Positions 413-8,515 of a stretch of DNA of 64,000 nucleotides are shown here, one piece after another. The notes under the pieces were generated by a model, which was given only the letters and a program-made list of their open reading frames with translations, had not been told where the DNA came from and did not search any database. Positions within the stretch are counted from its first letter, which is position 1. Each line of letters opens with the position of its first letter. The position numbers and the translations under genes were made by a program. Origin of the DNA: Candidatus Hydrogenedentota bacterium (GTDB lineage: Bacteria > UBA8481 > J006); the NCBI GenBank assembly GCA_003697085.1, contig RFFU01000074.1, positions 17,562 through 81,561 on the forward strand. Reading direction: 5' to 3'.

Positions 413-567
413 TCCTGGGAGCGAAGGCGTCTTGCCCGCAGGAAACGGCGCGCGAATTCTCCAACCCGGGAGCGCGGGCATCTTGCCCGCAAGAAACGGA
501 GCGCAGATTCTCCAACCTGGGAGCGCGGGTATCTTGCCAGCAAGACACGCGGCGCAGATTATCAACC
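413..567. repeat. three tandem ~52-bp copies of intergenic repeat module C (CTGGGAGCGCGGGCATCTTGCCCGCAAGAAACGG.GCGCAGATTCTCCAACC)
   Basis: Read directly. Copies begin near 413, 466 and 518. Each contains a GCGGGCA-TCT-TGCCCGC type palindrome. Related copies sit in at least 10 other intergenic sites of this window. Confidence 0.85.
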
Positions 568-708
568 CGCGGAGAGCAATTCTCTCCATTCACGGCCGAA
601 CGTGTCTGTGGTCGGATGGGACGCGGACATTCTGCTTGTAGGAACGCGAGCAGATGAGATTTTCCCCCGACAAGAGAATTCACCTTTCTTTAGGGAAAAG
701 GAAGGTGA

Positions 709-1527: not shown

Positions 1528-1612
1528 CCCACCTCCCGGTTGTCGGAAAGGAAGGATTCTATCTTTTGCCCGCGTTCCAAACAAGAAAGAGGCATCCTCC
1601 CTCCTCCCCCCT

Positions 1613-1635
1613 CCCTCTCCCCCGTGGGGAGAGGG
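1613..1635 (-). terminator. perfect 10-bp GC hairpin (CCCTCTCCCC-cgt-GGGGAGAGGG) 25 nt downstream of the EF-hand gene stop; possible terminator or RNA stabiliser
   Basis: Inverted repeat read directly. No clean U-tract follows on the minus strand, so terminator function is uncertain. Confidence 0.3.
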
Positions 1636-1659
1636 TTGGGGTGAGGGGAATCTCCTCCG

Positions 1660-2718
1660 TCAATGGTTCCTCTTCCATTTTTTCGCGGCTTTCTTCGCCG
1701 CCTTCGGGTGATGATACGCCGTCTTCGCCGCCTTCGGATGGCTCGTTACAGCCTTCCGATGCTTGTAGGCCTCCTTGGCGGCCTTCGGATGACTTGCGAT
1801 CGCCTTCCGATGTTTGTAAGCCTTCTTCGCCGCCTCCGGATGATTCTTGACAAAGGTCCTATGAGCGTAAATCGCCTTCGCGACCGCGGGATGGGAATTC
1901 AGATACTTCTTGTTCTTCCATAACGCCTCCGCGACCTCGGGATGATCGTACAGGTACTTGCGGTTCTTATATACCTCCTTCGCCACCTCCGGGTGGGCAT
2001 CGAGCCATTTGCGGTTCTCGTAGAGTTTCTTCGCGATCTCCGGGTGCTCGTTGAGAAAAACTCGGTTCTTGTAAACCTCCTTGGCGACTTCCGGGTGTTC
2101 GTTCAACCACGTCCGATTCTCGTAGAGCCGTTTGGCCACCTCCGGATGTTCGTTCAACCATTCCCGGTTCTCGTAGAGTTTCTTTGCCACCTCCGGGTGC
2201 TCGTTCAGCCATTTCTTGTTCCGGGCGAGGGCCTTCGCCACCTTCGGATGTCGATCCAGATAATACTTGTTCTCGAGGAGTTTCTTCGCCACGGTGGGGT
2301 GGTTCTTCAGCCACTTCAGATCGTCGAGATTCGCGTTGGGATACTTCGCCTTGAGATCGCGCCAGGCGCGTGCTTCAAGCGCTTCCCGGTGTCGGATCTC
2401 CCAGCGCCGCTGCGCCTTCGCTTCCTCAAATGAGATTCGTCCATCGCCGTCCTTGTCGGCGTGCTGGAAGCGCTCCCCGTCACGATAGGATTCAAATTCC
2501 AGCATCGCTGCGTCGATCTCATCCTTGTCCAGAAATCCATCTCCGTTTAGGTCTGTCTCGTCAAACCGTTCCTTCGAGTAATACTCCTTGTAAACCTCGC
2601 CCTCGTCGTCCGCTCTCACTGGAAGCACGGAACCAAGGGTACAGCCGATCGCCGATGCCAGAATCACCGCCGCCAGCCTTCGCACCGCTTTGCTCTTTCC
2701 TCGCTTCTCCCTTGCCAT
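1660..2718 (-). CDS. secreted (possibly lipoprotein) EF-hand calcium-binding protein with C-terminal 17-aa tandem repeat array
   Basis: N-terminal signal-like segment RRLAAVILASAIGC. Two canonical EF-hand loops are present: DLNGDGFLDKDE (aa 56-67) and DKDGDGRISFEE (aa 88-99). About 12 repeats of the type WLNEHPEVAKKLYENRx follow and degenerate into HPKAAKEAYKHRKA units. Confidence 0.85.
   Translation of the reverse strand: MAREKRGKSKAVRRLAAVILASAIGCTLGSVLPVRADDEGEVYKEYYSKERFDETDLNGDGFLDKDEIDAAMLEFESYRDGERFQHADKDGDGRISFEEAKAQRRWEIRHREALEARAWRDLKAKYPNANLDDLKWLKNHPTVAKKLLENKYYLDRHPKVAKALARNKKWLNEHPEVAKKLYENREWLNEHPEVAKRLYENRTWLNEHPEVAKEVYKNRVFLNEHPEIAKKLYENRKWLDAHPEVAKEVYKNRKYLYDHPEVAEALWKNKKYLNSHPAVAKAIYAHRTFVKNHPEAAKKAYKHRKAIASHPKAAKEAYKHRKAVTSHPKAAKTAYHHPKAAKKAAKKWKRNH
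1663..2313 (-). repeat. intragenic 51-bp (17-codon) tandem repeat array, about 12 units
   Basis: Periodicity is visible in both the protein (HP-x-VAK-x-LY-x-NR-x-WLNE) and the DNA (recurring GCCACCTCCGGGTGCTCGTTCAGCCA-like blocks on the plus strand). Confidence 0.8.
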
Positions 2719-2908
2719 TCTTCTCCCTCCATCTTTCGATATTCTTGAGGCTCTTTTCGTCCTCTGTTCCTTTAGAAGCTCTGAGGCGAAAACCGTTTAC
2801 CTGAAATAACGGTAACTTTTCTTACATAGGGAGCATACAACATGTTCCCAAAAGGATTTACCACGAAAAGAAGAGAGGGGAGAAAAGAGAAGAGTGATCG
2901 ACCTTCGC

Positions 2909-7573: not shown

Positions 7574-7611
7574 GATTCTCCGCAATCGGGGAGAAAGGAG
7601 AGGTGAAAACG
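7574..7611 (+). promoter_or_regulatory. conserved 38-nt 5' leader with small hairpin and strong Shine-Dalgarno (AAAGGAGAGG), copy 1
   Basis: 35/38 identical to 7791-7828. Contains CTCCG-caat-CGGGG followed by the SD, 8 nt before the ATG. Confidence 0.65.
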
Positions 7612-7758
7612 ATGGCGGAAAAGGAAGCTGAGAAGGTTGAGTCGGATTCCGGGAAGGAGCCGGAGAGGAAAGAGGAGGAGGCGCTTTCCGAGGAGGAGAT
7701 GCGGAAGGTGACGGGGGGACGACTCTTTGGAAATTCGATCGCCGGGCGGGTGCTATGA
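7612..7758 (+). CDS. double-glycine leader peptide precursor A (48 aa: 36-aa leader + 12-aa core RLFGNSIAGRVL)
   Basis: MAEKEAEKVESDSGKEPERKEEEALSEEEMRKVTGG|RLFGNSIAGRVL. L(-12), M(-7), V(-4) and GG(-2,-1) fit the C39-cleaved GG-leader consensus. Strong SD upstream. The leader is paralogous to that of the next gene. An in-frame ATG at 7471 would give a 95-aa form but is not supported by the paralog. Confidence 0.7.
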   Translation: MAEKEAEKVESDSGKEPERKEEEALSEEEMRKVTGGRLFGNSIAGRVL

Positions 7759-7790: not shown

Positions 7791-7828
7791 GATTCCCCGC
7801 AGTCGGGGAGAAAGGAGAGGTGAAAAGG
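7791..7828 (+). promoter_or_regulatory. conserved 38-nt 5' leader with small hairpin and strong Shine-Dalgarno, copy 2
   Basis: GATTCCCCGCAGTCGGGGAGAAAGGAGAGGTGAAAAGG. Hairpin CCCCG-cagt-CGGGG. An in-frame TGA at 7790 prevents any longer N-terminus for the downstream gene. Confidence 0.65.
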
Positions 7829-8515
7829 ATGGCGGAAAAGGAAGACGGGAAGGCAAAAGCCGACAAAGAGAAGGAACCGGAAAGAAAACCGGAGGAACCC
7901 CTTTCGGAGGAGGAGATGAAGGATGTGGCGGGAGGGTTTATTCCCACTCCGGCCACTTTCGGGAATCCCCTTTCGTCCCGGATGGCGTCGAGATTGCGTC
8001 GGCGCGGCGCGGTCGGTCCGGTCGATCCCGAGGAGGCGGTCTCACGCGGTCCGGTCGATCCCGAACAAAGCCGGCGTCCCGACGATCCGAAACACCCGTG
8101 GCACCTTTGCTTCGGCCCGGAGACGCTGGTTCCAACGCGGAAGGGCTATCAGCCTATTTCTGGGATCGCAGTCGGTGACGAGATCGTCAGTGTCACCTTC
8201 GACGGAACCTTGTTCGTCGATCGGGTCGAAAAGCTGGACGTTCACCACGGGGAGATTTCCGTGATCGAACTTTCGTTGGACGACGACGTGATTCTCGTCA
8301 CTCCTGACCATAAGGTCTGGTCGGGCGAGAAATGGATCCGAGCCGCCGACTCGATCTATGTTTCCCGGACGAAGGTGGGAAGAATCGTTCCGGCGGTCTA
8401 TAACCTTCGAACCACCACGGGAACATACCTGGTCGGATACAGCGGACTGCTCGTTTCAGGTGGGCGGGTGGAAGACCTGCATTCCGAGGATCCGGTGGCG
8501 GAGGTTGCTCGGTAG
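7829..8515 (+). CDS. double-glycine leader precursor B fused to a Hint (Hedgehog/intein-like, BIL-type) domain (228 aa)
   Basis: Leader is MAEKEDGKAKADKEKEPERKPEEPLSEEEMKDVAGG, followed by a 57-aa Pro/Arg-rich segment. Cys94 then opens CFGPETLVPT..G..VGDEIVSV, followed by LVTPDHKVW (TxxH) and VYNLRTTTGTYLVGYSGLLVS. The ORF track starts at GTG 7820; ATG 7829 aligns with precursor A. Confidence 0.8.
   Translation: MAEKEDGKAKADKEKEPERKPEEPLSEEEMKDVAGGFIPTPATFGNPLSSRMASRLRRRGAVGPVDPEEAVSRGPVDPEQSRRPDDPKHPWHLCFGPETLVPTRKGYQPISGIAVGDEIVSVTFDGTLFVDRVEKLDVHHGEISVIELSLDDDVILVTPDHKVWSGEKWIRAADSIYVSRTKVGRIVPAVYNLRTTTGTYLVGYSGLLVSGGRVEDLHSEDPVAEVAR

What the first reader, a model, noticed from the sequence alone, without database searches (positions are those of the whole stretch)
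1660..2718. EF-hand protein with a ~12-unit, 17-residue His/Lys-rich tandem repeat (HPEVAKxLYxNRxWLNE)
SEEN:
- A signal/lipobox-like N-terminus and two canonical 12-residue EF-hand loops.
- From about aa 136 to the C-terminus, a strictly 17-aa (51-bp) periodic array. Each unit carries an invariant HP and basic/aromatic positions.
- The last units degenerate into HPKAAK(E/T)AYKH, and the protein ends KKAAKKWKRNH.

INFERENCE:
- The 17-aa helical repeat with one His per unit may be a periplasmic or extracytoplasmic metal- or polyanion-binding solenoid coupled to Ca2+ sensing.
- I do not recognise this repeat as a named family.
- The array is also a likely hotspot for copy-number variation.
Basis: partly seen in the sequence, partly recalled or inferred. 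Interest (0 to 1): 0.5.

Follow-up and report, generated by a model that had tools for sequence, protein, structure and literature searches.

The report
Secreted calcium-binding protein with 17-residue helical repeats
This is a real, intact gene for an exported protein that joins a calcium-binding EF-hand pair to a lysine-rich coil of twelve 17-residue helical repeats; it belongs to a rare, unnamed and unstudied family that in many other bacteria sits inside a cell-envelope stress-sensing (ECF sigma factor) gene cluster.

Summary
The ORF at 1660..2718 (-) encodes 352 aa: a signal peptide, two canonical EF-hand loops, and 12 exact 17-aa units (His-Pro at 140...327) plus a partial 13th. Lag-17 identity is 0.57, against at most 0.20 in shuffles.

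The array is old. DNA units are at most 76% identical, and 45% of identical residues use different codons.

Relatives are rare and nearly all from uncultured bacteria of many phyla, with 4-12 units. In 12 of 22 contexts the gene lies beside an ECF sigma factor and anti-sigma factor, usually with DUF3106. The window copy lacks this cassette.

Best reading (inferred): a periplasmic, Ca2+-responsive basic scaffold that binds an acidic envelope partner. His-based metal binding is not supported, because His is the inter-helix cap. Interest is moderate: a new variant of known kinds.

The parts
1660..2718 (-). Complete CDS (352 aa plus TGA stop) of the EF-hand / 17-aa-repeat protein
   Evidence: The ORF is listed. 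The identical protein is called on Logan contig SRR7905022_13993. Homologues at 37-51% identity are intact in more than 20 loci.
2723..2730 (-). Shine-Dalgarno-like GGAGGGAG, 4 nt before the ATG
   Evidence: Read directly from the sequence.
2611..2718 (-). Signal peptide, aa 1-36: basic n-region, hydrophobic core, VRA|DD. It contains a non-conserved AIGC lipobox-like motif.
   Evidence: Hydropathy. AF2 predicts a helix at aa 8-31. All homologues have a hydrophobic N-terminus but no conserved Cys. The cleavage site is inferred, not predicted by a tool.
2416..2580 (-). Acidic EF-hand pair domain (about aa 47-101). Ca2+ loops are at aa 56-67 (nt 2518-2553) and aa 88-99 (nt 2422-2457).
   Evidence: Pfam EF-hand_1 E=1.5e-9 with 2 stretches, and EF-hand_7 30.5 bits. 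PDB hits are EhCaBP, calbindin and calmodulin. Net charge of aa 37-125 is -10.
2344..2430 (-). Long connecting helix (aa 97-125) from the exit helix of EF-hand 2 to the repeat array
   Evidence: AF2 predicts a helix at aa 97-125, with pLDDT 76-91.
1708..2319 (-). Twelve 17-aa (51-bp) units, aa 134-337. Family consensus: R-K-W-L-N-x-H-P-E-V-A-K-x-L-Y-x-N. Units 1-9 are two short helices each; units 10-12 are single 16-residue helices.
   Evidence: Searches give the register, consensus and identities. One search gives the AF2 model (pLDDT 83.7, breaks only at His7 and Asn17). One search gives the TRF 51-bp period.
1663..1707 (-). Truncated 13th unit and Lys-rich tail (PKAAKKAAKKWKRNH)
   Evidence: Basic tails also end the homologues.
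1585..1661 (-). Strong GC-rich stem-loop straight after the stop codon (core CCCTCTCCCC/GGGGAGAGGG at 1613-1635), followed by a CUCUUUCUUGUUU tract. It is terminator-like.
   Evidence: RNA fold gives -52.1 kcal/mol, z = -3.78, with 0 of 200 shuffles as stable. The simple terminator scan did not call it.

Best explanation
**Shown**
- The gene is real and under purifying selection.
- It encodes a two-domain protein with an N-terminal export signal.
- The first domain is an acidic pair of canonical EF-hand loops.
- The second is a Lys-rich array of 12 (+1 partial) 17-residue units.

**Predicted**
- The array folds as an alpha-solenoid. Each unit is a 6-residue helix (xxWLNE) and a 9-residue helix (PEVAKKLYE).
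- The two helices are joined by single capping residues: the invariant His, followed by Pro, and Asn17.
- Trp/Leu/Val/Ala/Leu/Tyr form the core. Lys and Glu are on the surface.

**Shown by comparison**
- It belongs to a rare, unnamed family found in Omnitrophota, Myxococcota, Planctomycetota, Goldiibacteriota, Gemmatimonadota, Spirochaetia, Desulfobulbales and Bacteroidia.
- In 12 of 22 contexts examined the gene lies on the same strand as, and next to, an ECF sigma factor and anti-sigma factor. Most of these (nine) also carry a very basic DUF3106 protein, and several a small very acidic secreted protein.

**Inferred mechanism**
- In the periplasm the EF-hand pair reports or depends on Ca2+.
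- The basic solenoid acts as a scaffold that binds an acidic partner.
- In cassette-bearing genomes that partner would be the acidic amphipathic periplasmic tail of the anti-sigma factor or its small acidic look-alike. Otherwise it would be anionic envelope material.
- The protein would thereby take part in envelope-stress or cation sensing.

**The window copy**
- It is an orphan: no cassette lies within 64 kb.
- It has the largest array seen, and probably forms its own transcription unit.
For: - **Architecture:**
- **Selection on the protein.** Units are at most 76% identical at the nucleotide level, while central units reach 82% at the amino-acid level. 45% of identical-residue codon pairs are synonymous variants.
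- **Family.** There are 12 word-index hits and 714 HMMER hits with E up to 1e-3. 57 of the best 150 align continuously from the EF pair into the repeats. Thirteen loci were found among 185,579 species genomes.
- **Caps.** DSSP breaks fall only at His7 and Asn17.
- **Cassette.** Seen. The order sigma, then anti-sigma (zf-HC2 in most cassettes), then a small acidic protein, then DUF3106, then the gene occurs in Omnitrophota-type loci and L007. A Bacteroidia relative at only 31% identity also follows an ECF sigma (L026).
- **Charge complementarity.** Anti-sigma tails are 0 to -19 over their last 60 residues, acidic (-5 to -19) in nine of the eleven (the L018/L020 pair is 0). Small proteins are -8 to -19 and carry NLEFLESLEFLEEE-type motifs. 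DUF3106 proteins are +15 to +37. The query array is +30.
- **Precedent.** Caulobacter periplasmic EF-hand CaBP forms a regulatory loop with the adjacent ECF sigV (PMC13171946).
Against: - No binding, localisation or expression data exist for any family member.
- The window copy and about nine other contexts lack the sigma cassette, so the function cannot strictly depend on it.
- No shared ECF-type promoter motif was found upstream of the sigma genes or of the repeat genes.
- The partner is inferred only from co-occurrence and charge.
- The whole-protein AF2 model is mediocre (pLDDT 69, pTM 0.43).
- Signal-peptide cleavage was not predicted with a dedicated tool.
Confidence: 0.5

Rival explanations
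1. Periplasmic metal-binding or metal-buffering solenoid (Zn, Ni, Fe, Cu). The regularly spaced His residues, one per unit and two per unit in the last four units, would form metal sites, with the EF-hands adding Ca2+ control.
For: - His is present in 119 of 123 units across the family.
- There are 18 His in 219 residues, and extra His at position 17 in units 9-12.
- The source is an iron-rich hot spring.
- One cassette partner is LTXXQ/Spy-like, a family that includes metal sensors (weak: 20.3 bits against a cut-off of 24.3).
Against: - His is the single non-helical residue before Pro, a structural cap position.
- The same HP[DE]VA helix start occurs in non-metal TPR proteins.
- Distant members lose the His.
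- Core units have only one His and no Cys or Met, so any site would need ligands from neighbouring units.
- No metal-binding family was hit.
Confidence: 0.15
2. Envelope or exopolymer-associated structural protein that works without any sigma factor. The basic solenoid would coat or bridge anionic polymers such as LPS, EPS or phospholipid head groups, with Ca2+ as co-ligand. In this genome it would act alongside the neighbouring glycosyltransferase, methyltransferase and membrane-protein genes.
For: - In the window the gene follows, on the same strand, a GT4 glycosyltransferase, a methyltransferase and a polytopic membrane protein, and it precedes a CPBP protease.
- P0001 also has PMT_2 and GT2 genes nearby.
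- The array carries +30 charge and a Lys tail.
- About ten contexts lack the sigma cassette.
Against: - The glycosyltransferase neighbourhood is not conserved among homologues.
- A 190-bp gap lies upstream and a strong hairpin downstream, which suggests a separate transcription unit.
- The recurrent neighbour is the ECF cassette, not polysaccharide genes.
Confidence: 0.2
3. Haem-binding, haemophore-like protein related to the mycobacterial Rv0203 (MHB) family. Each aromatic-x3-His motif would be a potential haem site.
For: - The Pfam MHB whole-protein score is 30.2 bits, above the 27.4 cut-off, and TIGR04529 gives 28.8 bits.
- Homologues carry faint MHB hits.
- Acidobacteria-type HP-repeat proteins that hit the query (P0027) match MHB at 6.9e-18.
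- Rv0203 uses Tyr59, His63 and His89 (PMC9846915). The i/i+4 Tyr-His spacing equals positions 3 and 7 of the unit.
- The habitat is iron-rich.
Against: - No single MHB stretch passes; the score is a sum over repeats.
- TIGR04529 is below its cut-off of 32.
- Profile and sequence searches of the PDB never retrieved Rv0203.
- Position 3 is Trp in 7 units, Phe in 2 and Ala in 2 of the 12 units, and Tyr in only 3.
Confidence: 0.07
4. Not a functional gene: a chance ORF or a decaying repeat.
For: None beyond the repetitive nature of the sequence.
Against: - The domain order is conserved across phyla.
- The pattern of synonymous differences points to protein-level selection.
- A Shine-Dalgarno motif is present.
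- The ORF is intact in more than 20 loci.
Confidence: 0.01

Closest known systems
Caulobacter vibrioides CaBP (CCNA_02838), linked to ECF sigma SigV; also P. aeruginosa EfhP
   Same: Both are Sec-exported bacterial EF-hand proteins. CaBP is genetically adjacent to an ECF sigma factor and in a regulatory loop with it, responding to Ca2+ and pH (PMC13171946). EfhP is an EF-hand Ca2+ sensor of P. aeruginosa that controls Ca2+ regulation of iron uptake (PMC11559002).
   Different: CaBP is 133 aa with three EF-hands and no repeat array. No sequence relationship beyond the EF-hand loops was tested or seen. The window gene has no sigma factor nearby.
HEAT/ARM/Pumilio-type alpha-solenoids
   Different: The unit is 17 residues (helices of 6 and 9), against roughly 34-47 residues in TPR, HEAT and ARM repeats (textbook values). 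Sequence identity is 4-13%. There is no Pfam HEAT, ARM or TPR hit.
Mycobacterial haemophore Rv0203 / Pfam MHB (PF16525), and the Acidobacteria-type 'FLDxHPxxAxQL' repeat proteins
   Same: They share the short motif aromatic-L-x-x-H-P-x-x-A at a helix-turn-helix junction. Summed weak MHB scores are seen.
   Different: No domain-level match exists, and the period differs (exactly 17, against irregular units of about 60). Fold searches did not retrieve Rv0203, and Tyr is mostly replaced by Trp.
DUF3106 (PF11304) and LTXXQ/Spy-CpxP periplasmic helical proteins
   Same: These are secreted, basic, all-helical repeat proteins encoded in the same ECF sigma cassettes as homologues of this gene.
   Different: The repeats are unrelated (W..L.PE.R or LTXXQ, against WLxxHPxVAK). 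The query does not hit these models.
TPR_12-type repeats (kinesin light chain) and the RecA C-terminal helix
   Same: They share the motif K-[DN]-H/N-P-[DE]-[VT]-A-K at the start of a helix.
   Different: The matches are only 8-25 residues long with E of 0.07 or worse per site. The RecA E-values arise solely from concatenated RecA chains.

Membership tests
EF-hand (PF00036 / PF13499 pair) | A 12-residue loop with D/N/D at positions 1, 3 and 5, Gly6, a hydrophobic residue at 8 and Glu12, flanked by helices | tested here: met
   The loops are DLNGDGFLDKDE and DKDGDGRISFEE. EF-hand_1 gives E=1.5e-9 with two stretches. AF2 shows helix-loop-helix with short strands at aa 62-64 and 94-96.
EF-hand (PF00036 / PF13499 pair) | Two motifs forming a paired domain | tested here: met
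   EF-hand_7 scores 30.5 bits against a cut-off of 30, which is marginal. Foldseek probability is 0.99-1.0 to calmodulin and centrin lobes.
EF-hand (PF00036 / PF13499 pair) | Ca2+ binding | not testable with these tools
   Needs ITC, 45Ca overlay or a mobility shift.
Haemophore MHB (PF16525 / TIGR04529) | A domain-level match to the family model above the curated cut-off | tested here: not met
   Pfam gives 30.2 bits for the whole protein but 0 stretches pass. TIGR04529 gives 28.8, below 32.
Haemophore MHB (PF16525 / TIGR04529) | Five-helix Rv0203-like fold | tested here: not met
Haemophore MHB (PF16525 / TIGR04529) | Tyr and His haem ligands (Tyr59, His63, His89 in Rv0203; PMC9846915) | tested here: inconclusive
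   His is present in every unit. Tyr at i-4 occurs in only 3 of 12 units, with Trp in 7. The alignment to Rv0203 itself could not be made.
HEAT/ARM alpha-solenoid | A superhelix of stacked antiparallel helix pairs | tested here: met
HEAT/ARM alpha-solenoid | A repeat unit of about 37-47 residues recognised by family profiles | tested here: not met
   The unit is 17 residues. No HEAT, ARM or TPR Pfam hit appears at E up to 1.
Bacterial lipoprotein | A lipobox [LVI][ASTVI][GAS]C at the end of the signal peptide, conserved among orthologues | tested here: inconclusive
   AIGC (Cys26) fits a loose lipobox, but hydrophobic residues continue to aa 32. The Cys is absent from all nine aligned homologues. 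No LipoP or SignalP was available.
ECF sigma / anti-sigma / DUF3106 envelope cassette (as seen around homologues) | The gene lies adjacent to, and on the same strand as, an ECF sigma factor and its anti-sigma factor | tested here: not met
   No ECF sigma, anti-sigma or DUF3106 ORF is found anywhere in the 64-kb window or in contig L001. The feature is met in 12 of 22 homologue contexts.
Spy/CpxP/LTXXQ periplasmic chaperones | LTXXQ motifs or a PF07813 match | tested here: not met
   No hit at E up to 1.

The most novel reading that the evidence does not exclude
The 17-residue WLxxHPxVAKxLYxN unit would define a new natural alpha-solenoid class with an unusually short repeat. EF-hand/solenoid proteins of this family would then be Ca2+-gated periplasmic ligands of the acidic tails of anti-sigma factors, competing with small acidic decoy proteins and DUF3106. 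That would be a previously undescribed input module for ECF sigma signalling, spread across at least seven phyla.
Probability: 0.15. Interest if true: 0.7.

Novelty: new variant of a known kind. Interest (0 to 1): 0.42.

Why it matters
- **Family definition.** This work defines an unannotated protein family: an EF-hand pair plus a 17-residue helical repeat. No current Pfam or NCBIfam model describes the repeat.
- **Gene neighbourhood.** It shows a recurrent neighbourhood of ECF sigma factor, anti-sigma factor and DUF3106, often with a small acidic protein. This gives a testable hypothesis for how some ECF systems sense Ca2+ or envelope charge.
- **Protein design.** The very short, regular and well-predicted solenoid unit may interest repeat-protein engineers.
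- **This window.** For the window itself, the result is an ordinary chromosomal gene of unknown function. It is not a mobile element or a defence system.

Tried and rejected
- **PDB sequence search with the whole protein** returned EF-hand proteins only.
- **PDB search with a profile of triple units** returned only RecA C-terminus and kinesin-light-chain motif matches. The RecA E-values are inflated by concatenated chains.
- **Recovering Rv0203 through P0027** found only designed ankyrin-like proteins. The proposed Tyr59/His63 = 'YLxxHP' correspondence therefore rests on memory plus a review, and was not tested.
- **Foldseek against the PDB with the whole model** gave nothing at E below 0.06 for the repeat part.
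- **The afdb50 library** was unavailable.
- **A shared ECF-type promoter (GGAAC...)** was sought upstream of the sigma genes and the repeat genes. No common motif was found. A lone GGAAC-N17-TCAAGA lies 53 nt upstream of the window ATG but has no support elsewhere.
- **The sigma-70 promoter scan** found nothing on the gene's strand, and the simple terminator scan missed the hairpin.
- **Paralogues in the window:** none.
- **Conserved glycosyltransferase context:** rejected, because it is not conserved.
- **Literature on DUF3106** gave nothing relevant.
- **Model coordinates** are not exposed, so His and Lys surface geometry could not be measured.

Full report
**1.

The ORF at 1660..2718 on the minus strand encodes 352 aa. 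It has an ATG start preceded by GGAGGGAG.

The protein starts with a basic n-region and a hydrophobic stretch of about 20 residues ending VRA|DD. A loose lipobox (AIGC, Cys26) is present. The Cys is absent from all nine aligned homologues, so ordinary Sec/SPase I export is the more likely reading. This is an inference, because no predictor was available.

Two canonical EF-hand loops, DLNGDGFLDKDE and DKDGDGRISFEE, are recognised by Pfam. EF-hand_1 gives E=1.5e-9 with two stretches, and the pair model scores 30.5 bits against a cut-off of 30. PDB sequence and fold hits to calmodulin-like lobes agree.

From aa 134 the sequence is a 17-residue repeat. His-Pro occurs at 140, 157... 327 with eleven spacings of exactly 17, followed by a truncated 13th unit and a Lys-rich tail. 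Lag-17 identity is 0.569. In 2000 shuffles the best value over any lag never exceeded 0.195. TRF sees the 51-bp period.

**2. The array is old and selected at the protein level**

- Units are at most 76% identical in DNA. Central units reach 82% at the protein level.
- 45% of identical residues are encoded by different codons.
- The longest exact DNA repeat is 20 bp.

The array is therefore not a recent slippage product. Nothing here suggests ongoing instability, although copy number differs among homologues from 4 to 12, with this protein at the top.

The EF domain has net charge -10 and the array +30. Units 3-8 are near neutral. Units 1-2, units 9-12 and the tail are basic.

**3. Structure**

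AlphaFold2 on the whole protein with 10 sequences gave pLDDT 69. On aa 126-352 with 33 sequences it gave pLDDT 83.7, with 81 residues at 90 or above.

The DSSP pattern is strictly periodic: a 6-residue helix, His, a 9-residue helix, Asn. The invariant His (followed by Pro) and the position-17 Asn are therefore the only non-helical residues, which makes them inter-helix caps. In units 10-12, where Asn17 becomes His and Trp-Leu becomes Ala-Ile, each unit is one 16-residue helix broken only at His-Pro.

The predicted fold is thus an alpha-solenoid with an unusually short unit. TPR, HEAT and ARM units are about 34-47 residues (textbook knowledge).

**4. No named family covers the repeat**

Pfam and NCBIfam at E up to 1 give only scattered sub-threshold hits in the repeat region.

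The most notable is the haemophore family MHB. Pfam gives 30.2 bits for the whole protein, above the 27.4 cut-off, but no single stretch passes. TIGR04529 gives 28.8 bits, below its cut-off of 32. This is a sum of weak motif matches.

A profile of triple units searched against the PDB returns only short motif matches:
- the RecA C-terminus, AWLKDNPETAKEI;
- kinesin-light-chain TPRs, KDHPDVAKQL.

This shows that aromatic-L-x-x-[HN]-P-x-x-A is a recurrent helix-junction motif. Rv0203 itself was never retrieved.

Rv0203 uses Tyr59, His63 and His89 for haem (PMC9846915). The i/i+4 spacing matches unit positions 3 and 7. However, position 3 here is Trp in 7 units and Tyr in only 3. I treat haem binding as a low-probability rival.

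**5. The family**

The word-index search found only 12 relatives, the best at 37-47% identity. The exhaustive HMMER search found 714 proteins with E up to 1e-3 and 140 with E up to 1e-10. Of the best 150, 57 align in one stretch from the EF pair into the repeats.

Those 57 include roughly 220-aa Bacteroidia proteins and 800-1400-aa proteins in which the module heads a long coiled coil. A consensus from 123 units is R-K-W-L-N-x-H-P-E-V-A-K-x-L-Y-x-N, with His in 119 of 123 and Pro in 123 of 123.

In 185,579 species genomes only 13 loci were found. All are MAGs: Omnitrophota, Myxococcota, Planctomycetota, Goldiibacteriota, Gemmatimonadota and Spirochaetia. One cultured organism carries a member, Desulfomarina profundi DGMP_29460, annotated 'hypothetical protein'.

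The identical protein occurs in SRR7905022. That sample is sediment from the source pool of Jinata hot spring, one of the iron-rich Japanese hot springs studied in PMC12501874.

**6. Context is the main new lead**

In the window the gene follows a GT4 glycosyltransferase, a methyltransferase and a membrane protein, and it precedes a CPBP protease. A 190-bp gap lies upstream. A very stable hairpin sits right after the stop codon, at -52 kcal/mol with z = -3.8. The gene is probably its own transcription unit.

That neighbourhood is not conserved among homologues. Instead, 12 of 22 distinct homologue contexts have an ECF sigma factor and its anti-sigma factor on the same strand, within 3 kb. Nine of these also carry a DUF3106 protein, confirmed by Pfam at 3e-27 and 2e-22. 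L018 and L020 have a weak LTXXQ-like protein instead.

Several cassettes also encode a small secreted protein of net charge -8 to -19. It carries NLEFLESLEFLEEE-type motifs that resemble the acidic periplasmic tail of the anti-sigma factor (DIIQDMDFLEDLEVIEN). The DUF3106 proteins are +15 to +37.

The association reaches a Bacteroidia relative at only 31% identity (L026). Some cassettes add an outer-membrane beta-barrel-like gene.

The window copy has no such cassette within 64 kb or on the longer contig. No common ECF-type promoter motif was found.

**7. Interpretation**

Shown:
- an exported EF-hand protein with a conserved, selected 17-residue repeat;
- a recurrent ECF-cassette neighbourhood in relatives.

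Predicted:
- an alpha-solenoid with His-Pro and Asn as caps.

Inferred:
- a periplasmic, Ca2+-responsive basic scaffold binds an acidic partner and takes part in envelope-stress or cation sensing;
- the partner would be the anti-sigma tail, the acidic small protein, or anionic envelope polymers.

The nearest studied analogue in function is Caulobacter CaBP. It is a periplasmic EF-hand protein in a regulatory loop with the adjacent ECF sigV (PMC13171946). It has no repeat array.

The 'one His per unit = metal ligand' idea is not. The 'CNV hotspot' idea is weak.

**8. Verdict**

This is a genuine, well-described feature. It is a new variant of known kinds, combining an EF-hand with an alpha-solenoid, and it belongs to an unnamed family. 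Interest is moderate. The function remains untested.

Noticed in passing
window 417-574: There are 3.1 tandem copies of a 51-bp unit (84% matches) in the intergenic region beyond the CPBP protease gene. Each copy carries the palindrome GCGGGCATCTTGCCCGC. The unit occurs nowhere else in the window. Its period equals that of the protein repeat by coincidence.
   Followed up: partly
window about 7590-7758 and 7820-8515 (+): Two adjacent ORFs begin with very similar Lys/Glu-rich leaders ending ...LSEEEM(R/K)(K/D)V(T/A)GG, which look like double-glycine leader peptides. The second continues into a 231-aa protein. Pfam finds nothing for it.
   Followed up: partly
L014 2445-2723, L015 4681-4920, L016 1346-1585, L024 4074-4355, L007 3355-3639: These are small secreted proteins of 76-84 aa with net charge -8 to -19. 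Their NLEFLESLEFLEEE...DDYEALDEWE motif mimics the acidic periplasmic tail of the neighbouring anti-sigma factor, so they may act as decoys. No Pfam family was found.
   Followed up: partly
P0054, P0085, P0088, P0092, P0095, P0119, P0137: Proteins of 800-1400 aa carry the same module (EF pair plus about five 17-aa units) at the N-terminus, followed by about 700-1100 residues of Gln/Glu/Leu-rich sequence that looks like coiled coil. Pfam finds nothing in the two tested (P0054, P0092). One context (L027) has no sigma factor.
   Followed up: partly
P0002, P0008, P0014, P0026: In some homologues the HP repeats are followed by a second, unrelated tandem repeat of about 7 residues, RREDV(R/K)D, repeated up to about 15 times.
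   Followed up: no
L020/L021 1108-2958: In one Omnitrophota-type locus an ExbB-ExbD-TonB set lies directly upstream of the ECF sigma / anti-sigma / LTXXQ-like / EF-repeat operon. This hints at trans-envelope signalling.
   Followed up: no
L007 1965-2941: In the Goldiibacteriota locus only a 74-aa C-terminal (region 4) piece of the ECF sigma factor is detectable upstream of an intact anti-sigma gene. A 287-aa ORF overlaps the place where region 2 should be. This may be a frameshift, an assembly error or a degraded sigma gene.
   Followed up: no
window 2719-2770 (-): GGAAC-N17-TCAAGA lies 53 nt upstream of the ATG and resembles RpoE-type ECF promoters. No matching motif was found upstream of homologues or their sigma genes, so it may be chance.
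   Followed up: partly
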